From the IMG/VR virus record IMGVR_UViG_2693429623_000012: a stretch of 28,812 nucleotides of DNA; one strand, written 5' to 3'. This DNA is from a virus (taxonomy: Duplodnaviria > Heunggongvirae > Uroviricota > Caudoviricetes). The notes under the pieces were generated by a model. The model saw nothing but the letters and a program-made list of their open reading frames with translations. It had not been told where the DNA came from and did no database searches. Of the stretch, positions 2,998-19,351 are shown piece by piece. Position 1 is the stretch's first letter; each line of letters begins with the position of its first letter. The position numbers and the translations under genes are program-made.

Positions 2998-3106
2998 ATA
3001 AACACAAACAAAAATCAATAAGTTAGGTAATTATCAAAGACTTACAGACACACAAAAACACAGCCAACCACAACAAATAACAGAGATGTGGTCAATTTGT
3101 GGATCA

Positions 3107-7953: not shown

Positions 7954-10776
7954 ATGACGGCAGAGTACATCAGGGACTGGCAACAACCGCGCCACGCAGT
8001 GGGGCGTGAAGGAACGGGGATCCCCGCTCCTGAATCCGCGCTTTCCTCCTGGCTGGATGCCCACCGGGCAGAGAACGAGCGCCGCCAGGAAATGGCTGAT
8101 GCGGCGTTCTCCGCCACGCCACTGGGCAACCTGATTAATAAAAGCCTGGACGCACAGGAAAAACAGGACAAAACCATCACACTGGCAGGAGACGCCAGAA
8201 AACAGGCACGCGGCGCGGTGGATGAAGCCATGGCCTCGCTGCGCCTGCTGCCGTCCTATCTGCGCGATCCGCTTATTCGCCACCTCTCCTTCCTGCGCAA
8301 AAAACAGGAAGCCGATCGCCGGAAAGGCAAAAAGAGCTGGCAGGCGGAACGCTATGCACGCGGAACCCTGCGCAAAATATTCGAACGTCTGGATCGCACT
8401 GACGGACACTGGCTGACACCGGGTTATCGCTCCCTTGCCGGACGTGAACGCCTGGACGATTTGCTTTACCTGCCGCAACTCAACAAACACCAGATACAGA
8501 CGCTGGCCACCATGACGGCGGCGATGTTCAGCAGCACCTTCGAAAAACTCTGCGATGGTTTTGGCGCGACTGATGGCGAGCTGACCATGGATGTAACGCT
8601 GAAGGCGTATCAGATGCTGGCCCGCATGGCGTTACACTTACACGCCATGCCTCCGCATTATGACGCACTGACAACAGACAAAGACCGGAGGCACGAACCG
8701 GACACAGAACTGCTGCCGGGCGCAATCCTTCGCCTGACCTGTGCGGAATGGTGGAAACGCAAACTGTGGCTGTTACGTTGCGAGTGGAGAGAAGAACAAC
8801 TTCGCGCCGCCTGTCTGGTTTCCAGAAAAACATCGCCCTATCTGAGCCAGGACGCGTTAAGCGAGTTTCGCGCACAGCGCGAGAAAACACGCGATTTCCT
8901 GAAAAGTTTCATGCTGGAAAATGAAGACGGGTTCACGATTGATCTCGAGACGGTGTATTACGCGGGAGTAAGTAACCCGGTTCACCGTAAGGCAGAAATG
9001 ATGGCCACCATGAAGGGGCTGGAACTTCTGGCCGAAGCCCGTGGCGACAAAGCGGTGTTTCTGACTGTCACCTGCCCGTCAAAATACCACGCCACAACGG
9101 AGAACGGTCATCCGAATCCCAAATGGAACGGGGCCACAATGCGCGACTCCAGCGATTACCTGGTTAACACGTTTTTTGCGACGGTCCGCAAAAAACTGAA
9201 CCGCGACGGCCTGCGCTGGTATGGCATCCGCACGGCGGAGCCTCACCATGACGGCACCGTGCACTGGCATATGATGGTCTTTGCTCATCCGGAAGAAATC
9301 GACACCATTGTGTCCCACACCCGCGATATTGCCATTCAGGAAGATCGTCACGAGCTGGGCGATGACATAACTCCGCGCTTTAAGGCGGAGTATGTAGACG
9401 GCTCAAAAGGCACGCCAACCAGCTACATCGCCACCTACATCGGGAAAAACCTGGACAGCCGCGCCGTGGATGGCATCGACCCGAAAACGGGCAAGCCACG
9501 CGTTGACCACGAAACCGGAAAATCAATGGCCGAGAGCGTGGAACGCGCCATCGGCTGGGCGCGCCTTCACCGGGTCCGCCAGTTCCAGTTCTTTGGCATC
9601 CCCTCCCGCCAGGTATGGCGTGAACTGCGCCGCCTTGCCAGCCAGATGGCACGCAACCCGGAAGGCCCGCAACGGCTGAAGGATGACGCAATGGATGCGG
9701 TTCTTGCCGCCGCTGATGCCGGATGTTTTGCCACCTACATAGAGAAACAGGGCGGCGTACTTGTTCCACGCAAAGACTACCTGATTCGCACCGCCTACGA
9801 CCTCGCCGATGAGCTGAACGATTACGGCGAACAGAGCGTACAGATTTACGGGATCTGGTCACCACTCATCGGGGAATCCTCCCGTGTGTGCACGCATCCG
9901 GATAACTGGAAGCTGGTAAGACGCAAACCGGAAGCGGAAGACAGCGCCCGCGAAAATGGTTTTGACCTTCAGGGCGGCCCTGCCGCCCCTTGGACTCGTG
10001 GCAATAACTGTCCCCGTGTACAGGAAACGGACAACAACGGGACAGAACAGCCGGAAGAACGGCCAGCACCGTGGCCGCAGCTCCCTGACGGCGTTGATGT
10101 GGATGAATGGATGCGCTCACTGAAACGGCACGAACGCCGGGCGCTGATGCGTTCGCTTCGTGACAAACAGGCAAAAAACAGCAGTGATGAAATGCAGAGC
10201 TGGACACAGAGCCGCAAACAGCAGCGGCCTTTGCCTGATAACCACGAATTACTCGCTAAAGAATGGCGGGAGTCTGCTGAATCTCTCGGCCTGCATATCG
10301 GTGAACAACAGATGCAGCACCTGTTACGGGGCGGCAGTCTGTACGTTGACGGCAGCATCATTGCACCGCAGGGATTTGAAATTGTACGCAAACCGGATAC
10401 CCGCCCGGACAGCCGAATCACGCAGCTCTGGCAGCGCCTGAGCCGTAATCATGGCGTAAGCAGCACGGAGATCCGCCATAACCCGGTCGCCAGCTATCTG
10501 ACACAGCTGGGGGCATCAGACCCTGAAGCCGCCGCACGCCTGGCATCCACACTTCAGCAGGACCAGAACACCATGAAAACACCCGTTACCGTGCTTTCTG
10601 ACATGCTGCGCGCCATCCGCGACGCAGAGCACGCACAGAGAATCAGTGAAACCACTGAACGCGCCCGCCGCAAAGCAGACCTGCTGCGGGGTGGCCTGAC
10701 CAGTGGAAACAAAAAACAGACAGAAACGGGACTCACGAATCCCGTAAATGAGCAAAAAACGCGCAGCGATATATGA
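7954..10776 (+). CDS. A: Rolling-circle replication initiation endonuclease, P2 gpA family (940 aa, long C-terminal extension)
   Basis: HUH motif HWHMMVF encoded at 9262-9282 (residues 437-443) and paired catalytic tyrosines Y-x3-Y (SYIATYIGKN, 9421-9450, residues 491 and 495), as in P2 A; position after the early ORFs matches P2. Confidence 0.9.
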   Translation: MTAEYIRDWQQPRHAVGREGTGIPAPESALSSWLDAHRAENERRQEMADAAFSATPLGNLINKSLDAQEKQDKTITLAGDARKQARGAVDEAMASLRLLPSYLRDPLIRHLSFLRKKQEADRRKGKKSWQAERYARGTLRKIFERLDRTDGHWLTPGYRSLAGRERLDDLLYLPQLNKHQIQTLATMTAAMFSSTFEKLCDGFGATDGELTMDVTLKAYQMLARMALHLHAMPPHYDALTTDKDRRHEPDTELLPGAILRLTCAEWWKRKLWLLRCEWREEQLRAACLVSRKTSPYLSQDALSEFRAQREKTRDFLKSFMLENEDGFTIDLETVYYAGVSNPVHRKAEMMATMKGLELLAEARGDKAVFLTVTCPSKYHATTENGHPNPKWNGATMRDSSDYLVNTFFATVRKKLNRDGLRWYGIRTAEPHHDGTVHWHMMVFAHPEEIDTIVSHTRDIAIQEDRHELGDDITPRFKAEYVDGSKGTPTSYIATYIGKNLDSRAVDGIDPKTGKPRVDHETGKSMAESVERAIGWARLHRVRQFQFFGIPSRQVWRELRRLASQMARNPEGPQRLKDDAMDAVLAAADAGCFATYIEKQGGVLVPRKDYLIRTAYDLADELNDYGEQSVQIYGIWSPLIGESSRVCTHPDNWKLVRRKPEAEDSARENGFDLQGGPAAPWTRGNNCPRVQETDNNGTEQPEERPAPWPQLPDGVDVDEWMRSLKRHERRALMRSLRDKQAKNSSDEMQSWTQSRKQQRPLPDNHELLAKEWRESAESLGLHIGEQQMQHLLRGGSLYVDGSIIAPQGFEIVRKPDTRPDSRITQLWQRLSRNHGVSSTEIRHNPVASYLTQLGASDPEAAARLASTLQQDQNTMKTPVTVLSDMLRAIRDAEHAQRISETTERARRKADLLRGGLTSGNKKQTETGLTNPVNEQKTRSDI

Positions 10777-10821
10777 AGCGCGCACAAAACAGGCAAAAAC
10801 GGGATTTCAGAATCCCGTAAA
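10724..10821. repeat. Two copies of a 25-bp element AAACGGGAyTyAsGAATCCCGTAAA, each an inverted repeat (ACGGGA/TCCCGT); candidate parC-like centromere, operator or replication signal
   Basis: Copy 1 at 10724-10748 (inside the A 3' end), copy 2 at 10797-10821 (intergenic), 73 bp apart, just upstream of the ParM-like gene. Confidence 0.5.
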
Positions 10822-10852
10822 CGATTAATTAATCAACATAAGGAAAAGCGAC

Positions 10853-11812
10853 ATGAAAATTTGTATCGACGACGGCTCCACCAACATCAAGCTGGCATGG
10901 ACTGAGAACGGCGAACGCCGCAACGCCATCAGCCCGAACAGCTTCAAGTCGGAATGGTCTGCGCCGTTCGGTGGCATGCAGCCCGCGAACTACATGCTTG
11001 ATGGCGTGCGCTATGGTTTTGATCCGGTCAGCGATCGCTTTGTCCAGACAACCGACACGCAATACCAGTACAGCGATGTAAATGTCATTGCCATTCATCA
11101 CGCGCTGGTCAAATCAGGCATCACGCCACAGGAGGTGGATGTGGTTGTCACCCTGCCACTGAGCGAGTATTTCGACACAAACGCACAGCCGGACATGGCC
11201 AACATCAACCGCAAAAAAGCGAACGTTATGCGCCCGGTGGAGTACCAGAACGGCGAAGCATTCACTATCCGTAACGTGCGGGTTATGCCTGAATCCATTC
11301 CGGCTGGCTTTAAGGCACTGGCTGACATGAGTCCGTTTGAATCCCTGCTGATTGTGGATTTGGGCGGAACCACGCTGGATGTGGCAAAGGTTCAGGGGCA
11401 ACTGGCAGGTATCAGCCAGGTGTTTTGCGATCCACACGTAGGCGTTTCTCTGATGGCCGATGCCGTACTGTCGGTGATGGCCACTAACGGTATGCGCACC
11501 AGTCACCACATCGCCAATACCATTATCGAACATCGCCATGATGAAGCCTGGCTGCGCCAGCACATCCACAATGACGCGCATTACGCCAGCCTGATGGCGG
11601 TTATTCGTGAAAAGGAAGAAACACTGAAACAACGCGTGATCCGCGCGCTGGCGGGTTTTTCGGGTTACGGGCGGGTGATGGTTGTCGGTGGAGGGGCGGA
11701 GATTGTGGCACCCGCTATCCGCGAAGCCTGCGGAGTTAATGCGACTTTCATCGCGGACGGGGTGCCACAGTTTGCTCTGGTTAATGGGCTGTACGCAATG
11801 GACAAGGAGTAA
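10853..11812 (+). CDS. Actin-like segregation ATPase, ParM/StbA family (319 aa)
   Basis: N-terminus MKICIDDGSTNIKLAW...ISPNSFKSEW...YSDVNVIAIHHAL closely parallels plasmid R1 ParM (MLVFIDDGSTNIKLQW...ISPNSFKREW...YSDVNVVAVHHAL, recalled); AAGGAAAAG upstream. Confidence 0.85.
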   Translation: MKICIDDGSTNIKLAWTENGERRNAISPNSFKSEWSAPFGGMQPANYMLDGVRYGFDPVSDRFVQTTDTQYQYSDVNVIAIHHALVKSGITPQEVDVVVTLPLSEYFDTNAQPDMANINRKKANVMRPVEYQNGEAFTIRNVRVMPESIPAGFKALADMSPFESLLIVDLGGTTLDVAKVQGQLAGISQVFCDPHVGVSLMADAVLSVMATNGMRTSHHIANTIIEHRHDEAWLRQHIHNDAHYASLMAVIREKEETLKQRVIRALAGFSGYGRVMVVGGGAEIVAPAIREACGVNATFIADGVPQFALVNGLYAMDKE

Positions 11813-11816
11813 ACCA

Positions 11817-12128
11817 ATGACGACACCAACCAGACGGATAAGTTTCTATCTGAAGCCTGCGGCCGTCAAGAACGAAAGCGAAGCATGCGCCTGGCTGGGC
11901 AGCCTTACACCAGAAGCCCGCAAAAGCGGCCAACGCGTGGCTTTTCTGGCCGGGCTGGCACTTCTGAAAATGAATCCAGCAGAGGCTTACCGACTGGCTG
12001 CATGGGCTGACGATGAGGCGTTATCGGTGACACAAACCAGGACAGAACGCCCCGTGCCACAGCCAGTACCAACCGCACAGATAACCAGTCAGATAGCAGG
12101 GAATATCCGGGCATTATTTCCTGAATGA
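11817..12128 (+). CDS. Putative ParR-like partition adaptor (103 aa)
   Basis: In-frame ATG 5 nt after the parM-like stop. Weak but collinear resemblance to R1 ParR: RRISFYLKP vs RRTIAFKLNP, AGLAL core, C-terminal IRALFPE vs ILRSLFPKE (recalled). Confidence 0.55.
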   Translation: MTTPTRRISFYLKPAAVKNESEACAWLGSLTPEARKSGQRVAFLAGLALLKMNPAEAYRLAAWADDEALSVTQTRTERPVPQPVPTAQITSQIAGNIRALFPE

Positions 12129-12188: not shown

Positions 12189-12713
12189 ATGAAAAAATAC
12201 GAATACATGCTAATGAAAGAAGCACTGCGGGCTGGTCTGGCTCCCTGTCCTGTATCCGTAGAAGCTGTTGTTGGGAACACGATTTTCCGAACGCTGCGAA
12301 ATCGCGTATCCGTGAAGATGGTTCACCAACCACCCAAATCTACCAGCATGATCTATCTGCCGCTGCCCGAGGCTATCAAACTTATGCGTTCGCTGAAATT
12401 TGCGATTTGGATGCAGACACAAATCAACAAAGCGGTGCAAAACACCTTCGTTAAGAGACTAATACCGGAGCTTGCTGCCAGATGTGCAAAATGTACCAGA
12501 CCCGCACTTCAATTTGATCTGTCATTGATTCAACAAGCTACGGAGGCAGAACTGTACCGCCTGTCACCTATCCGTGATGCTCACACGGAAGCATCAGAAA
12601 TGTTCCGGCTCATGTTTCAATTTAATTTTGCCGTTCGACGCACACGCGTTCAGGTCAATCGCATGATGCAGGAGCAGGAAGAGTTAACACAGTACAAAGG
12701 GGGCAGCCAGTGA
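12189..12713 (+). CDS. Hypothetical protein (174 aa), accessory-locus cargo
   Basis: ORF track 12189..12713; GAGGA upstream; no recognisable motif. Confidence 0.5.
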   Translation: MKKYEYMLMKEALRAGLAPCPVSVEAVVGNTIFRTLRNRVSVKMVHQPPKSTSMIYLPLPEAIKLMRSLKFAIWMQTQINKAVQNTFVKRLIPELAARCAKCTRPALQFDLSLIQQATEAELYRLSPIRDAHTEASEMFRLMFQFNFAVRRTRVQVNRMMQEQEELTQYKGGSQ

Positions 12714-12949
12714 GTAATTCAGCACGACTACAGCTTGGTTTTTCACCGCTATCAAAAACCATCGTATTGGCAAAAATGCGTGACTTAGGAGACGGAACAA
12801 AACGCCGCGTAGGAAATGATCGCGGTCGCGATGTAACCAACGAGGCCGCTCAACTCGTTTGGCATCTAGTCATGGCAGAAGGCGGTGAAATTAATTGGGA
12901 GCTGGATGATGGTTCTCGTATGATTTTGAGGGCCGAGAAGAGTAAATAG
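12710..12949 (+). CDS. Hypothetical protein (79 aa), accessory-locus cargo
   Basis: ORF track 12710..12949; start overlaps the upstream stop (ATGA). Confidence 0.45.
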   Translation: MSNSARLQLGFSPLSKTIVLAKMRDLGDGTKRRVGNDRGRDVTNEAAQLVWHLVMAEGGEINWELDDGSRMILRAEKSK

Positions 12950-12963
12950 CTCAAGGGGGATTA

Positions 12964-13149
12964 ATGCTAAATGATGATGAAGAAGAGCTGCTTATGCAGG
13001 AATGGTCGCTCGGTGATTATGATAATGGTGAAAATGGGTGCCCGCATTGTGGCCGTTATCGTTTATGTATCTGCCAGAATGGAAAACACAGATGTGAAAA
13101 GTGCAATTGGTCTCCGGAACTTAATGACTACGTGCCGATCGAGTGGTAG
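12964..13149 (+). CDS. Small Cys-rich putative zinc-binding protein (61 aa)
   Basis: ORF track 12964..13149; CPHCGRYRLCICQNGKHRCEKCNW has at least two CxxC pairs. Confidence 0.45.
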   Translation: MLNDDEEELLMQEWSLGDYDNGENGCPHCGRYRLCICQNGKHRCEKCNWSPELNDYVPIEW

Positions 13150-13189
13150 AGGTAAGTCACACTAGGTGTTTTTTAGTTGATTTTATAAA

Positions 13190-13216
13190 TGCACAATAGT
13201 GCACAAATTTGCACAA
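13190..13216. repeat. Three TGCACAA heptamers phased exactly 10 bp apart
   Basis: TGCACAA at 13190-13196, 13200-13206, 13210-13216, with a fourth at 13282-13288. Nearby: direct repeat GGATCCGT (13260-13267 and 13271-13278) and a perfect 16-bp palindrome AAAAAACGCGTTTTTT (13288-13303). Confidence 0.8.
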
Positions 13217-13640
13217 TTTTTTTGAACGACTTTTTGCCCTTCCGGCCCGCGTGGCGGCTGGATCCGTCAAGGATCCGTGCATGCACAAAAAAACGCGTTT
13301 TTTCTGCGCGCAGGTGACGGGGGAACAGCCCGCGTTTCAGGGGGTAAATAGCATTCCCTGAACGATGTCGCAGAGATACAACAGAATGGCTGTATTTCTC
13401 ACGCTGAGCGTGAAAAAGACGTGAGGGCTTTTGATTTGATGGGGTGAAAGGTAAGGCCGTCAAAATCGCACTGAGACGGCGAGAATATGCAGTCAACGAG
13501 GTGGGATTGCGTAAGAGTCTGACTGTCGATGATGGCAATCAGCAGGAAAGCGTCGTGAAATTATCTGACTGATACAGGAGCTGGAGAGTCGGGGCATAAA
13601 TTTTTTATGCCCCGGCGAAGCAGCAGACAAGCGAAGCGCG

Positions 13641-14687
13641 TCAGGATGTGGGCTGGGTGTCTAACAGTGCGTAAGGGTTAAAGCGGATCACCTCTTCGCC
13701 AAGCCAGTCATTGATGTGCTTCATGGCCTCCATGACGGGCATCAGCTCGTTAATTGCGTAAACCCGCGCGGCCTTCTCCACATCACCAAACGCACTTTTT
13801 TCGCCCGGCATCGCCCCCATCAGTTGCGGCGGAACGCGGTGCGCAGCCAGCACATCATCACGGGATGCCGCCTTAACATTCATGAACTCATCCTTTGCGG
13901 TGATCTGCTGGAACGGCAAAATTTGCACCCCCTCTTTGCCCCCGTTGGGCGCATGAATGAGCACGTTTTTAAACGCACCACCACCACGTGCCCCCTGTAG
14001 CGTTTCTTTCAGGGAGTCCATGCTTTCGCGGTTTACCTGCGCTGCACCGATGTAGATGATGCACCCGGCGTGGGATCCGTTGTCGTAGTACAGTTTTCTG
14101 AACATGTCCGCCGAATGAGAAAGGCTGGCCGAGAGTAATGCGCCAAGATATTCCGGCATGCCGTAGATTTCCTGGTTAATATCCGGATTCATCAGGTGGC
14201 ACACTTTGCCAGGACGAAACTGAAACGCATCCTTGCCATCCTGCACATACCACCATGATTCAAGATCGCTTCCGCGTCGCATGTATTTCGCCAGGGCGTG
14301 CCGTAATTTAAGCGGTTCGCCGAGCATATTGCTCCGAAGCTCAAGGAATGCGTTACCGAACACAAACCAGTCCAGCGCCAGCGCCGAGAAATCCTGCCGG
14401 GAAAGCAGCGGGTGCGGAATATAGCAGCCGAGCAATACATTGCGCTTAAAGTAAAGCGCAGACTGATGCCAGGACGTTTGCCGGGCAGCTCTTGCCAGAC
14501 CGTACCAGTCCACCGGGGTTTCATACCACCGCCCGTTATCAGCACAGTACATATTGTCCAGCAGGTCATGCCCGGTCAGGCGGTAAGGACCATCAAATGT
14601 GAATGCACTGAGCGACGATTCTTTCCTGAGCGCATCAGCGAGATCAATGCGTGAACTCATGCGCACTTTTTTATTTTTTCTGCTCAT
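13641..14687 (-). CDS. Q: Portal protein, P2 gpQ-like (348 aa)
   Basis: ORF track 13641..14687; size and position match P2 Q (last gene of the leftward P-Q operon); start codon overlaps the P stop. Confidence 0.85.
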   Translation of the reverse strand: MSRKNKKVRMSSRIDLADALRKESSLSAFTFDGPYRLTGHDLLDNMYCADNGRWYETPVDWYGLARAARQTSWHQSALYFKRNVLLGCYIPHPLLSRQDFSALALDWFVFGNAFLELRSNMLGEPLKLRHALAKYMRRGSDLESWWYVQDGKDAFQFRPGKVCHLMNPDINQEIYGMPEYLGALLSASLSHSADMFRKLYYDNGSHAGCIIYIGAAQVNRESMDSLKETLQGARGGGAFKNVLIHAPNGGKEGVQILPFQQITAKDEFMNVKAASRDDVLAAHRVPPQLMGAMPGEKSAFGDVEKAARVYAINELMPVMEAMKHINDWLGEEVIRFNPYALLDTQPTS

Positions 14688-16438
14688 CAGAACTCCATAA
14701 CCGTGAAACGCTCGTTTTCTCCTTCGCCGCCAATCGGTTCGTTAATGACAGCAAGCATGGTTGCCCACGCAAGGTCGCCGTGGCTGATCCCCCTCGCGCG
14801 GTCCGTTTCGTAAGTGATAAAACCGCCCGGTGTTTTCACCTTACGCACGGCGTTAAAGGCCGCAACCAGCTCGCGTTCGGCGCGATCGTATTCCCACCGC
14901 CCGGCACGCATTATTTGCAGCATTTTCAGTACCAGCGACCGTTTTGATGACAGCGTGAAGGTGTAAGGGATGGCGGCGGGAAAAAACCGTTTCACTATCT
15001 GATAGACGGCATCCCCGTGCCCGCCCGTCGCATCAATGCCGATGTGTTCCACGTTGTAGCGATACGTGAACTCTTCAATAACTCTGGCCTGCTCTTCAAA
15101 TTCCAGCCCCTGAACGCGTCGCGTCTCCACCGTTCTGAAACGACCACCAGGAACAGCCGGAGGAACCACCACGGACACAGCGCCGCTGTCGCCGTTACCA
15201 CTGCTGCCGTTTGCGTCATACCCAATCCATACCGGACGATTCCCCATCGGGCGGGGGGCAAAGGGTTTCCAGTCTTTCCAGTCGTCGTATCCGTCAACAC
15301 CGCAGCCAATCAGGATATTCAGGTTAAATGCCGATTCCCCTTCGCGGACAAACTCACACATATAGAGATTGCGGAACTCGTCTTCGGTGTTTTCATCACG
15401 AATTTCATCAATATCGGTGTGTTTCCAGCCGTGATTAACCACATCTTCCAGCGTGACAATTTGCCGCCACGTCCGGTCAGGGCAGATAAGCCCGTTATGC
15501 AGCGTTTTCCAGTCCACAGAAAAACGCTGGCGTTTATGCGCGGCCTTTTTCTCGTTCCAGCGGTCGCCGTTCCAGTAGGCGTATGCCTCGTGCGTTTCGG
15601 TGGATGGCGTGGAGAAGCAGGTGCGCCGCAGTCCGCTGAGGGTTGCCATAGCGCCAGCCACCTTGCGCAGTTCAGCAAAGCGACTGACCCAGAAAAATTC
15701 ATCAAAATAAAAATTGCCCGTGTAAGATTGCGCCGTCGCAGCAGAAGTGCCGAGAAAATGCATCTCTGCGCCGTTGGAGAGGATGATTTTATCGCCCCCT
15801 TTCAGCTCCACATCGACTTCAGCCGCGGCCTTCTGAATAATGCTTTTAAACTGGAACGCCTGACGACGCGACGCAGACAAAAAAATCTGGTTACGCTGGT
15901 AAGGTTGTGCCACATCGTCACGCAGCGCCATCAGCAGTGCTTCCTGTGCAAAATACCAGGTCGCCCCAATCTGTCGGGATTTCAGGATCATCCTGTTACG
16001 TATCCCGGCTTCCCTGCAAAGCGTCAGGGAGTCAAACCAGCCCCGCTGATGCCACTCCAGCCTGCTGATGATTTTTTCCCGCAGTGCGGCAATCTGTTCC
16101 GGCGTGAAATGATTTTTGAGTTTTTTCGCCCGGCCTTTCTTTCCTGTGGCCGTCGCATCCGGCTGGCCATCATGCAGTTTTTTAAGCTGCCGGGTCAGCA
16201 GGTCTATTTCCTTAAAGTCACCACCTGTTTTATTCTGTTTTTCAGTAAGCTGGATGAGGCGCGCATCGATGGACTGCGTGACACGCTGCACGGGTGGCGT
16301 TTCATCCCACTGGTCGCGTTTTTTCCACGCATAAATCGTGTTCGGGTTTATTCCCATCAGACGTGATATTTCTGCGGGCGGATAACCCTGCCAGTAAAGT
16401 TGCCGCGCACGCTGGCGCACAAAAGCGTCCTGAATCAT
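14687..16438 (-). CDS. P: Terminase large (ATPase) subunit, P2 gpP-like (583 aa)
   Basis: ORF track 14687..16438; size and synteny match P2 P (about 590 aa), divergent from the O-N-M-L operon. Confidence 0.85.
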   Translation of the reverse strand: MIQDAFVRQRARQLYWQGYPPAEISRLMGINPNTIYAWKKRDQWDETPPVQRVTQSIDARLIQLTEKQNKTGGDFKEIDLLTRQLKKLHDGQPDATATGKKGRAKKLKNHFTPEQIAALREKIISRLEWHQRGWFDSLTLCREAGIRNRMILKSRQIGATWYFAQEALLMALRDDVAQPYQRNQIFLSASRRQAFQFKSIIQKAAAEVDVELKGGDKIILSNGAEMHFLGTSAATAQSYTGNFYFDEFFWVSRFAELRKVAGAMATLSGLRRTCFSTPSTETHEAYAYWNGDRWNEKKAAHKRQRFSVDWKTLHNGLICPDRTWRQIVTLEDVVNHGWKHTDIDEIRDENTEDEFRNLYMCEFVREGESAFNLNILIGCGVDGYDDWKDWKPFAPRPMGNRPVWIGYDANGSSGNGDSGAVSVVVPPAVPGGRFRTVETRRVQGLEFEEQARVIEEFTYRYNVEHIGIDATGGHGDAVYQIVKRFFPAAIPYTFTLSSKRSLVLKMLQIMRAGRWEYDRAERELVAAFNAVRKVKTPGGFITYETDRARGISHGDLAWATMLAVINEPIGGEGENERFTVMEF

Positions 16439-18550: not shown

Positions 18551-19351
18551 ATGATTACTCCTGCACAGCAACACTGGCAGAACGTGATGGCACAGCGCGC
18601 AGGCCGGGCGAATGAAGGTGTGGACCACGCCGCGCGTACCGCGCATGAAGAGGTGCTGTATCGTCTGCGTCTGGCACAGGCCCGGCTTAAGGGCGTACAG
18701 GCCAGAAGCGCGAAAGCCGACATCAAAAAAGCGTTGTTGCCGGACTTTTCCGGCTGGATTGAGGGAACGCTGGAGGCTGACGGCGGGCAACAGGACGAAG
18801 TGATTGCCACGCTGATGGTGTGGGCGATTGACTGCGGCGATCTTCCGCTTGCGCTGCGTATTGGTGCGTATGCGGTCCGTCACAACCTCATCATGCCGGA
18901 TAACTTTGGCCGTACTGCTGCCACAGTGCTGACCGAAGAAATCTGCAATCCGGTACTGACGCAGGCCGGGACGGATGCCGACGCGGATTTGTCCGTCTTT
19001 ATCGAACCACTGGACACACTTTGGGAAATTGTCGCCAACCAGGATATGCCGGACGAAGTGCGCGCCAAATTATGCAAGGCGTGCGCCTTTGCCCGCCGTG
19101 GCCTGAGCGATGCGGACAGCATGGCCTCATCACTGAAGCTGCTGCGCGAAGCGATGCATCTGAACCAGAACGCAGGTGTGAAACGCGAGATTGCAACCCT
19201 TTCCCGCGCCCTGAAAAAAGCCGATTCCGCAGCCGCACCAGAAGACGCCAGCGCACAGCAGGCGCAGGACGAAAGCAGCGAAAGTAAAAAGACAACGCGG
19301 AAGCCTGCAACACGAAAAACCACCGCGACGCAGAAGGCGAAGCGCGGTTAA
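18551..19351 (+). CDS. M: Terminase small/endonuclease subunit, P2 gpM-like (266 aa)
   Basis: ORF track 18551..19351; contains ...ADMPDEVRAKL...AGVKREI..., closely matching P2 M as recalled; basic C-terminal tail. Confidence 0.85.
   Translation: MITPAQQHWQNVMAQRAGRANEGVDHAARTAHEEVLYRLRLAQARLKGVQARSAKADIKKALLPDFSGWIEGTLEADGGQQDEVIATLMVWAIDCGDLPLALRIGAYAVRHNLIMPDNFGRTAATVLTEEICNPVLTQAGTDADADLSVFIEPLDTLWEIVANQDMPDEVRAKLCKACAFARRGLSDADSMASSLKLLREAMHLNQNAGVKREIATLSRALKKADSAAAPEDASAQQAQDESSESKKTTRKPATRKTTATQKAKRG

What the first reader, a model, noticed from the sequence alone, without database searches (positions are those of the whole stretch)
13150..13640. Repeat-dense intergenic region where cos is expected
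The 490-bp noncoding stretch between the accessory genes and the portal gene holds three TGCACAA heptamers phased exactly 10 bp apart (13190-13216) and a fourth at 13282-13288. It also has a GGATCCGT direct repeat (13260-13278), a perfect palindrome AAAAAACGCGTTTTTT (13288-13303) and a GC-rich block (ccggcccgcgtggcggctgg, 13242-13261). By P2 genome organisation, cos and the terminase recognition site lie between the accessory region and Q. Helical-face phasing of the heptamers suggests cooperative protein binding.
Basis: partly seen in the sequence, partly recalled or inferred. Interest (0 to 1): 0.45.

Follow-up and report, generated by a model that had tools for sequence, protein, structure and literature searches.

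The report
Packaging (cos) site of a P88-like prophage
This is very probably the DNA-packaging (cos) site of a common P2-family prophage, an expected and ordinary element whose repeated TGCACAA motifs sit where phages P2, 186 and P4 carry TGCAT motifs upstream of their mapped cut sites.

Summary
A 10-bp-phased heptamer triple occurs once in the 28.8-kb window and in 0 of 2000 shuffles.

The window is a P88-like (Xuanwuvirus, P2-family) prophage. The stretch lies between the variable cargo region and the portal and terminase genes.

Comparison with about 200 related loci defines a conserved module of about 145 bp (13190-13334):
- Homology among relatives begins at the first heptamer.
- Heptamers 2, 3 and 4, the 10-bp spacing and the adjoining T7/A7 tracts are near-invariant across 16 Enterobacterales species.
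- A 19-mer, GGTGACGGGGGAACAGCCC (13313-13331), is invariant, and divergence starts at the next base.

Measured from 13313, the TGCA motifs lie at -123, -113, -103, -35 and -31. In P2, 186 and P4 they lie at -124, -111, -101, -35 and -29 from the annotated cos cut. The 19-mer matches the P2 cohesive end at 13 of 19 positions.

I conclude this is a diverged P2-type cos. The repeats are probably terminase recognition sites, and the 19-mer is probably the cohesive end.

The GGATCCGT repeat, the palindrome and the GC block are lineage-specific. The ends have not been mapped. This is a new member of a known kind, of low to moderate interest.

The parts
13190..13216 (+). Distal array: three direct TGCACAA heptamers at exactly 10-bp spacing (13190, 13200, 13210). 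Proposed terminase recognition repeats (cosB-like). Also the left boundary of the conserved cos module.
   Evidence: Homology to relatives starts at 13188-13191 in 63 of 80 loci. 0 of 2000 shuffles give such a triple. Near-invariant in about 100 unique sequences and 16 species. Same offsets as the TGCAT triple of P2, 186 and P4.
13217..13225 (+). T7 tract plus GA directly after heptamer 3 (TGCACAATTTTTTTGA). Invariant. Possibly an intrinsic bend.
13242..13257 (.). GC-rich imperfect inverted repeat CCGGCC-cgcgt-GGCGG in the spacer. The sequence is lineage-specific, but inverted-repeat potential recurs.
   Evidence: Other lineages have CCGCC/GGCGG, TCCGGCCT/AGGCCGGA or GCCCGG/CCGGGC. P4 and 186 have CCGCGCC/GGCGCGG and CGCCAG/CTGGCG at the same place.
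13260..13276 (.). GGATCC-gtcaa-GGATCC, which is both a direct and an inverted repeat. Specific to the P88 lineage. A single GGATCC at about -51 is also present in some 186-type cos regions.
   Evidence: GGATCC within -58..-41 in 58 of 96 P88-type and 22 of 110 P2-type sequences.
13278..13293 (+). Proximal doublet TGCAT/TGCACAA followed by an A-tract (TGCATGCACAAAAAAA). The counterpart of TGCAAC-TGCATTAAAA at -35/-29 in P2, 186 and P4.
13288..13303 (.). Perfect palindrome AAAAAACGCGTTTTTT between the proximal motif and the predicted cut. Not conserved outside the P88 lineage. P2 has the inverted repeat CCGCCC..GGGCGG at the same place.
13305..13312 (+). Conserved left flank TGCGCGCA of the predicted nick.
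13313..13331 (+). Predicted cosN: a 19-nt cohesive-end sequence GGTGACGGGGGAACAGCCC. By analogy with P2 and 186, the top-strand nick would fall at 13312|13313 and the bottom-strand nick at 13331|13332, leaving a 5' overhang.
   Evidence: 13 of 19 identical to the P2 cohesive end; only 8 of 57,588 positions in the window match that well. An invariant run of exactly 19 in 71 unique P88-like sequences. Invariant through its last three bases, with divergence from the next base, in all lineages but one. At the right distance from the TGCA motifs. Not mapped physically.
13336..13362 (.). Hairpin TTCAGGG-N13-CCCTGAA just right of the predicted cos. Partly conserved. Role unknown.
13590..13614 (.). 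Perfect 11-bp hairpin CGGGGCATAAA-ttt-TTTATGCCCCG, 26 bp downstream of the portal stop. It sits where P2 has terminator tQ, but no T-run follows it.
   Evidence: The weak sub-threshold Rfam hit lies on it.
13641..14687 (-). Portal gene (P2 Q homologue).
   Evidence: Pfam Phage_portal. Annotated as portal in P88.
14687..16438 (-). Large terminase (P2 gpP homologue) with an N-terminal helix-turn-helix domain.
   Evidence: Pfam Terminase_5 + Terminase_6N + Terminase_6C. 44% identity to P2 gpP.
18551..19351 (+). Small terminase (P2 gpM homologue).
   Evidence: Pfam Phage_term_smal. 36% identity to P2 gpM.

Best explanation
Window 13190-13334 is the cos (cohesive-end packaging) site of a P88-like, P2-family prophage. 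It is built on the same plan as the cos of P2, 186 and the satellite P4.

Proposed working:
- After replication, the phage terminase recognises an array of direct TGCA-type repeats on one face of the helix. The terminase is the large subunit at 14687-16438 plus the small subunit at 18551-19351.
- Three distal TGCACAA copies lie at -123, -113 and -103, followed by a T7 tract. A proximal TGCAT/TGCACAA doublet plus an A-tract lies at -35/-31.
- This positions the nuclease on the invariant 19-mer GGTGACGGGGGAACAGCCC (13313-13331). Staggered nicks there would give 19-nt 5' cohesive ends.
- The spacer holds interchangeable GC-rich inverted repeats, which may help the DNA bend or wrap.

Shown here: the repeats are real, non-random and conserved. 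They form the left edge of the conserved module. The layout is colinear with the annotated cos sites of P2 and 186 and with the cos region of P4. P2-type terminase genes are present.

Inferred, not shown: the exact nick positions, the 19-nt overhang, and terminase (either subunit) as the protein that reads the repeats.
For: 1. Position. The region lies between the gpA/cargo region and the portal, TerL, scaffold, capsid and TerS genes of a P2-type head module. P2-like phages are reported to carry cos next to a cargo hotspot between gpA and gpQ (PMC9122126).
2. Boundary. In 80 IMG/VR loci with near-identical portals, homology starts at 13188-13191 in 63 and at 13169-13184 in 13. DNA to the left is unrelated cargo.
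3. Conservation.
- Heptamers 2 to 4, the 10-bp spacing and the T7/A7 tracts are near-invariant in about 100 unique sequences whose portals are only 68-77% identical.
- They are also kept in 16 species of Enterobacteriaceae and Erwiniaceae.
4. The 19-mer.
- 13313-13331 is an invariant run of exactly 19 in 71 unique P88-like sequences.
- Across lineages, conservation stops after its last base.
5. Colinearity with mapped cos sites.
- TGCA offsets from the annotated cut are -123, -111, -101, -29 in P2 and -124, -111, -101, -35, -29 in 186 and P4. In the window they are -123, -113, -103, -35, -31 from 13313.
- In 108 unique P2-type cos regions, TGCA is enriched only at -124, -111, -101, -35 and -29.
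6. Sequence match. 13 of 19 identity to the P2 cohesive end. Only 8 of 57,588 window positions match that well, about 7e-4 for a hit within +/-2 nt of the expected place.
7. Shared spacer block. phiT5282H-type spacers share GGCGCGGTCTGA with P4 at the same offset.
8. Non-randomness. 0 of 2000 shuffles give a phased heptamer triple.
Against: - No virion ends have been mapped for any P88-type phage that I could find. None of the 18 matching phage records annotates cos or begins or ends at 13313.
- The one linear record that breaks inside the module (LR595891) starts at the equivalent of 13235. Its authors say nt 1 was chosen relative to reference genomes, so this is not a mapping result.
- Sequence similarity to P2-type cos is weak. 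Summed ungapped identity over 160 nt ranks 13313 only joint first with a chance site, and offset 13257 scores nearly as high. The case therefore rests on motif positions and conservation.
- The viable phage P88_4B11 has a 5-nt deletion in the 3' part of the predicted overhang.
- Which protein binds the repeats is untested.
Confidence: 0.8

Rival explanations
1. The region is cos, but the cut lies about 80 bp further left. The candidates are 13234|13235, which is nt 1 of the linear record LR595891, or the GC-rich block (cGCGTGGCGG at 13248-13257, resembling the first 10 nt of the 186 cohesive end GGCGTGGCGG). In that case the heptamers would sit immediately beside the nick.
For: - The LR595891 record ends ...TTTTTTTGAACGAATTTT and begins TGCCCTTCC.
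- 9 of 10 match of 13248-13257 to the start of the 186 cos.
- The ungapped-identity scan gives offset 13257 a score nearly as high as 13313.
Against: - The authors state that nt 1 was chosen relative to reference genomes after trimming contig-end repeats, so it is not mapped.
- The GC block varies between lineages, whereas 13313-13331 is invariant.
- With a cut at 13235 or 13248 the TGCA motifs would fall at offsets unlike those of P2, 186 and P4.
Confidence: 0.12
2. The phased heptamers are a centromere (parC-like iterons) for the ParM/StbB partition cassette encoded 1-2.3 kb upstream, bound cooperatively by the ParR-like protein.
For: - ParM (10853-11812) and a Plasmid_stab_B protein (within 11682-12128) are present.
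- Partition centromeres are typically short iterons in helical phase (general knowledge).
Against: - The cassette has its own candidate site directly upstream of parM. It is two 42-nt repeats, each holding ACGGGA-N6/7-ATCCCGT, at 10710-10824. No TGCACAA lies there.
- In phiT5282H the same heptamers follow an AAA ATPase/S8 peptidase cargo with no ParM annotated in the 2.5 kb upstream.
- The equivalent TGCAT arrays occur in P2, 186 and P4.
- Unrelated cargo separates parMR from the heptamers.
Confidence: 0.03
3. The repeats are a transcriptional operator or promoter element, or part of a small RNA, that regulates cargo or late genes rather than packaging.
For: - In P2 the distal TGCAT array lies just upstream of the annotated old-tin transcript starts.
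- The region right of the module folds well, with z about -4.
Against: - No sigma-70-like promoter was found in 12900-13800.
- No gene starts next to the array on either strand. The cargo genes run towards it and the portal gene ends 425 bp away.
- No Rfam family reached threshold.
- The folding z-score is equal on both strands, as expected for DNA-level inverted repeats.
- The array is kept next to unrelated cargo in either orientation, and in P4, which argues for a cos-linked role.
Confidence: 0.04

Closest known systems
cos sites of coliphages P2 and 186 and satellite P4 (19-nt 5' cohesive ends; '55-bp core' of Ziermann & Calendar 1990, as cited in PMC5694545 and PMC3931495)
   Same: - Same genomic place, between the cargo hotspot and the portal gene.
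- Same terminase gene families.
- Same layout: three distal TGCA-type motifs at about -124, -111 and -101, a spacer with a GC-rich inverted repeat, a proximal TGCA doublet plus A-tract at -35/-29, a short inverted repeat, then a G-rich 19-mer.
- Motif offsets agree within 2 nt.
   Different: - The repeat unit is TGCACAA at 10+10 bp spacing, not TGCAT at 12-13+10 bp.
- The 19-mer matches P2 at only 13 of 19 positions.
- TGCGCGC lies left of the 19-mer rather than right of it.
- TerL is 44% and TerS 36% identical to those of P2.
- The ends are not mapped.
- No P4-like satellite was seen carrying this cos type.
Phage lambda cos (cosQ-cosN-cosB, with R3, R2 and R1 sites for gpNu1 and the IHF site I1)
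   Same: The same logic: a nicking site flanked by several copies of a short terminase-recognition repeat, with DNA bending between them (general knowledge).
   Different: - The proteins and sequences are unrelated.
- Lambda has 12-nt ends and three R sites, one of them inverted, plus an IHF site.
- Here all repeats are direct. There is no IHF consensus within 13186-13340. A/T tracts and inverted repeats occupy the spacer.
parC centromere of ParMRC partition systems (plasmid R1 type)
   Same: Short iterons in helical phase, and a ParM/ParR-like cassette encoded nearby.
   Different: - The cassette's own repeat pair lies upstream of parM.
- The heptamers are conserved in phages without ParM.

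Membership tests
P2-family cos site | Lies between the variable cargo region downstream of gpA and the 3' end of the portal gene Q | tested here: met
   gpA at 7954-10776, cargo to 13149, portal at 13641-14687 on the minus strand. Same order in P88 and P2.
P2-family cos site | Accompanied by P2-type terminase genes (gpP-like large subunit, gpM-like small subunit) | tested here: met
   Pfam Terminase_5/6N/6C and Phage_term_smal. 44% and 36% identity to P2 gpP and gpM.
P2-family cos site | G-rich 19-nt cohesive-end sequence of the type GGYGWGGCGGGG... | tested here: inconclusive
   GGTGACGGGGGAACAGCCC at 13313-13331 matches P2 at 13 of 19 positions. That is rare in the window (8 of 57,588) but not unique. 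The first 12 nt match the consensus at 9 of 12. The block is invariant and ends sharply after 19 nt.
P2-family cos site | TGCA-type motifs at fixed offsets upstream of the cut (-124, -111, -101, -35, -29). This feature was derived here from P2, 186, P4 and 108 unique relatives | tested here: met
   Window offsets are -123, -113, -103, -35 and -31 relative to 13313.
P2-family cos site | Sequence conservation of the 55-bp core shared by P2 and P4 | tested here: inconclusive
   Only motif-level similarity: TGCAnnAAAA, an inverted repeat and the G-rich 19-mer. Ungapped identity over 160 nt is not decisive.
P2-family cos site | Terminase cleavage giving 19-nt 5' protruding ends in virion DNA | not testable with these tools
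   Needs virion DNA. No record or paper found maps P88-type ends.
ParMRC centromere (parC) | Iterons located at the parM promoter and associated with the parMR genes | tested here: not met
   The heptamers lie 2.3 kb downstream of the parM start, beyond unrelated cargo. A separate repeat pair lies upstream of parM. The heptamers are present in phiT5282H with no ParM annotated in the 2.5 kb upstream.
Lambda-type cosB | IHF-binding site between terminase-binding repeats | tested here: not met
   No match to WATCAANNNNTTR (up to 1 mismatch) within 13186-13340.

The most novel reading that the evidence does not exclude
The TGCA-type repeat array could be the specificity-determining 'cosB' of the whole P2 family.
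- It might be read by the N-terminal helix-turn-helix of the large terminase rather than by the small subunit.
- The P88-type switch (TGCAT to TGCACAA, and a cosN that matches P2 at only 13 of 19 positions) would then define a separate packaging-specificity group that P4-like satellites have not colonised.
- cos divergence would thus act as an escape from satellite parasitism.

Hints only:
- TerL residues 21-40 are 95-96% conserved within each cos type but only 20% identical between types.
- None of the 77 genuine P88-type cos loci lacks a portal gene, whereas 18 of 81 P2-type loci do, 14 of them with P4 Psu.
- Both samples were capped at 120 rows.
Probability: 0.2. Interest if true: 0.55.

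Novelty: new member of a known kind. Interest (0 to 1): 0.3.

Why it matters
- The module occurs in 1101 of 5426 complete E. coli genomes, and no feature was annotated under the match in the rows shown. Its core is identical across many Enterobacterales. A defined cos therefore lets these prophages be oriented, and their completeness judged. An IS1 insertion at 13311 in one relative, for example, predicts a packaging-dead prophage.
- It marks the exact right-hand edge of the P2-family cargo and defence hotspot.
- It gives concrete sequences for building P88-type cosmids or transducing particles.
- It allows a test of whether helper-satellite compatibility in the P2/P4 system is set by the repeat array.
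- The finding that TGCA-type motifs sit at fixed offsets upstream of all P2-type cos sites is a simple, testable statement about how this terminase finds its site.

Tried and rejected
- Rfam scan of 12500-14200 at permissive E-value: only a sub-threshold gyrA-RNA hit on the 13590-13614 hairpin.
- Promoter and terminator scan: no promoter. One 'terminator' that is simply heptamers 2 and 3 pairing.
- Coding potential of the annotated small ORFs: rejected, because there is no codon periodicity and some relatives carry stops.
- LR595891 nt 1 as a mapped end: rejected after reading the methods.
- IMG/VR contig L025 ending near 13311: it is an IS1 insertion, not a physical end.
- Ungapped identity scan of P2, 186 and P4 cos regions against the whole window: 13313 is joint top but not significant on its own.
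- Search for phage records starting or ending at the predicted cut: none.
- Literature: the P88 paper and the Citrobacter phiSM paper say nothing on cos. Reviews give only the '55-bp core' statement. The 1990 Ziermann & Calendar paper is not in the library, so I could not check whether it already described the TGCAT repeats. A full-text search for TGCACAA returned only noise.
- Using the L203/L143 chimera to ask which terminase subunit tracks the repeats: uninformative, because its TerL is only 35% identical throughout.
- DNA folding of the module itself: z = -1.3, not exceptional.

Full report
OBSERVATION

All the listed features are at the stated coordinates.
- TGCACAA at 13190, 13200 and 13210, exactly 10 bp apart, and at 13282.
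- GGATCCGT at 13260 and 13271.
- AAAAAACGCGTTTTTT at 13288-13303.
- The GC-rich block at 13242-13261.

The heptamer is not over-represented in the window overall: 8 copies against 7.9 expected. The arrangement is what stands out. A triple of identical 7-mers at 8-12 bp spacing occurs once in the 28.8-kb window and in 0 of 2000 dinucleotide-preserving shuffles of the region.

The stretch is effectively noncoding. The 42-aa ORF at 13444-13572, annotated as hypothetical in some relatives, shows no codon periodicity in its variable sites (18/17/15) and has an internal stop in some copies.

CONTEXT

The window is a P88-like prophage (genus Xuanwuvirus, family Peduoviridae). The region matches Escherichia phages P88, 500465-2, 520873 and P88_4B11 and Citrobacter phiSM at 92-98% identity.

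Gene order:
- gpA-type replication protein, 7954-10776.
- ParM, 10853-11812, and a StbB/ParR-like protein within 11682-12128.
- Small cargo ORFs up to 13149.
- The gap under study.
- Portal, 13641-14687, minus strand.
- Large terminase, 14687-16438, minus strand, 44% identical to P2 gpP.
- Scaffold and capsid genes.
- Small terminase, 18551-19351, 36% identical to P2 gpM.

This is the P2 prophage order, in which cos lies between the cargo hotspot and gene Q. NC_001895 annotates cosL at 1-19 with Q at 187-1221. The hotspot next to cos is described in PMC9122126.

WHAT COMPARISON SHOWS

1. Left boundary.
- In 80 IMG/VR loci with near-identical portals, homology to the window starts at 13188-13191 in 63 and at 13169-13184 in 13.
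- DNA further left is unrelated cargo.
- The first heptamer is therefore the edge of the conserved module.

2. Deep conservation.
- An 18-mer from the right end of the module retrieved 120 IMG/VR loci. Many have portals only 68-77% identical to the window's.
- In about 100 unique sequences, heptamers 2 and 3 with the T7 tract (TGCACAATTTTTTTGA), heptamer 4 with its A-tract and the 10-bp spacing are near-invariant. Heptamer 1 varies slightly (C/T at position 1, A/G at position 6).
- The GGATCCGT repeat, the palindrome and the GC block are replaced by other sequences.
- An exact 24-mer of the core, with the heptamers at identical offsets, occurs in 16 species. These include Erwinia, Pantoea, Mixta, Kosakonia, Enterobacter, Citrobacter, Salmonella, Kluyvera, Izhakiella and Apirhabdus.

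3. An invariant 19-mer.
- Among 71 unique P88-like sequences, 13313-13331 (GGTGACGGGGGAACAGCCC) is an invariant run of exactly 19. Positions 13312 and 13332 on either side vary.
- Across all lineages the last three bases, which the search pattern did not impose, are kept, and the sequences diverge from the next base.
- The one clear exception is the viable phage P88_4B11, which has a 5-nt deletion there.

4. Colinearity with mapped cos sites.
- The cos cuts of P2 and 186 are annotated in their records, and the P4 record starts with the P2 19-mer. I measured TGCA motif offsets from these positions:

| Phage | TGCA offsets from the cos cut |
|---|---|
| P2 | -123, -111, -101, -29 |
| 186 | -124, -111, -101, -35, -29 |
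| P4 | -124, -111, -101, -35, -29 |
| Window, from 13313 | -123, -113, -103, -35, -31 |

- In 108 unique P2-type cos regions from IMG/VR, TGCA is enriched only at those five offsets, at 48, 66, 77, 90 and 104 of 108. DNA left of -125 is variable.
- Consensus sequences of the two types in the same register show the same plan: a distal triple, a spacer, a proximal doublet plus A-tract, a short inverted repeat, then a G-rich 19-mer.
- The 19-mer matches the P2 cohesive end at 13 of 19 positions. Only 8 of 57,588 window positions do as well. That is roughly 7e-4 for a hit within +/-2 nt of the place the motifs predict.
- The spacers also correspond. P4 has CCGCGCC-attcc-CGGCGCGGTCTGA, and the phiT5282H lineage of the present cos type has the same GGCGCGGTCTGA.
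- Perfect stems of at least 6 bp in the spacer occur in 66% of P88-type sequences and 30% of P2-type sequences, against 11-12% of shuffles. Relatedness inflates these figures.

INTERPRETATION

Window 13190-13334 is a diverged member of the P2-family cos.

The most likely mechanism is as follows.
- Terminase binds the direct TGCACAA repeats. Three lie on one helical face, and a fourth lies 72 bp further on, about seven turns away.
- The A/T tracts and the spacer inverted repeats help bend the DNA.
- The nuclease then nicks on either side of 13313-13331, giving 19-nt 5' ends as in P2 and 186.

The location, the conservation and the colinearity are shown here. The nick positions, the overhang length and the identity of the binding protein are inferred.

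On the binding protein there is only a hint. The large terminase carries an N-terminal helix-turn-helix (Pfam Terminase_5). Residues 21-40 are 95-96% conserved within each cos type but only 20% identical between types. No comparable stretch stands out in the small subunit. The contrast with other windows is modest, so either subunit remains possible.

RIVALS

(a) A cut further left.
- The linear record LR595891 begins at the equivalent of 13235.
- Its authors chose nt 1 relative to reference genomes (PMC6969025).
- That position lies in a variable segment and breaks the colinearity.
- The GC block resembles the first 10 nt of the 186 cos (9 of 10), but it is not conserved.

(b) A parC centromere for the ParM/StbB cassette.
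- The cassette has its own 2 x 42-nt repeat with inverted repeats upstream of parM.
- The heptamers occur in phages with no ParM annotated nearby, and their equivalents occur in P2, 186 and P4.

(c) An operator, promoter or small RNA.
- There is no promoter and no Rfam family. No gene starts beside the array.

LIMITS

- No end mapping exists for this cos type in the records or papers I could reach.
- Sequence similarity to P2 cos is too weak to be decisive alone. Summed ungapped identity ranks 13313 joint first, z about 4, tied with a chance site.
- The 1990 paper that defined the P2 and P4 cos is not in the library. I therefore cannot say whether the TGCAT repeats were described there. Later papers cite only a 55-bp core.

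NOVELTY AND INTEREST

A cos site here is expected from genome organisation, so the kind is known. What is new is modest.
- It defines the P88-type cos, which is present in 20% of complete E. coli genomes. The eight listed matches have no feature annotated under them.
- It observes that the P2 family keeps TGCA-type repeats at fixed offsets.
- It hints that this cos type forms a separate packaging group. No P4-like satellite was seen among the 77 genuine P88-type loci, against 14-18 of 81 P2-type loci. Both samples were capped at 120 rows.

Noticed in passing
window 10710-10824 and 10853-12128: A ParM plus StbB/ParR-like partition cassette inside an integrated P2-family prophage. Directly upstream of parM are two 42-nt direct repeats, each containing the inverted repeat ACGGGA-N6/7-ATCCCGT, a candidate parC/operator. 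1249 of 1250 copies of the nearby cos module in E. coli are chromosomal, so the role of a partition system here is unclear.
   Followed up: partly
L025 / L155 (IMGVR_UViG_2681813261_000011), equivalent to window 13311: An IS1 end is inserted two bases left of the predicted cos nick, and the contig breaks there. That prophage should be unable to package its DNA.
   Followed up: partly
L203 and L143 (IMG/VR): A P88-type cos with a clean deletion between heptamer 2 and heptamer 4 (recombination between repeats). It is joined to a head module whose portal (30% identity) and large terminase (35% identity) are of a different P2-like lineage. This is a chimera or a decayed junction.
   Followed up: partly
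L101, L108, L110 and about 10 other loci; equivalent to window ~13615-13640: Some relatives carry an extra ~630 bp with a 174-aa ORF and its own terminator between the 13590-13614 hairpin and the portal gene. This is a second small cargo slot on the portal side of cos.
   Followed up: partly
window 13335-13640: The ~300 bp between the cos core and the portal gene is hairpin-rich, with folding z about -4 on both strands. It includes a 7-bp inverted repeat (extendable to about 10 pairs when folded) at 13336-13362 next to the predicted cut and a palindrome CACGCTGAGCGTG at ~13400-13412. It is conserved within P88-like phages but absent from phiT5282H. Function unknown.
   Followed up: partly
window 3013-3025 and 3032-3044: Two perfect matches to the IHF consensus WATCAANNNNTTR lie 19 bp apart, near a 326-aa minus-strand ORF (1934-2914). 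This could be the attP/integrase control region.
   Followed up: no
L337 (NZ_JBQPOM010000071.1, 'Vagococcus sp. WN89Y'): A 226-kb contig labelled Vagococcus carries a cos module almost identical to the E. coli P88 type. It is probably contamination or a mislabelled enterobacterial contig.
   Followed up: no
window 12964-13149 and 12710-12949: The last cargo genes before cos are a 61-aa zinc-ribbon-like protein and a DUF7446 protein. Only 2 of 80 related loci share this cargo (L020, L073), in line with the hotspot.
   Followed up: no
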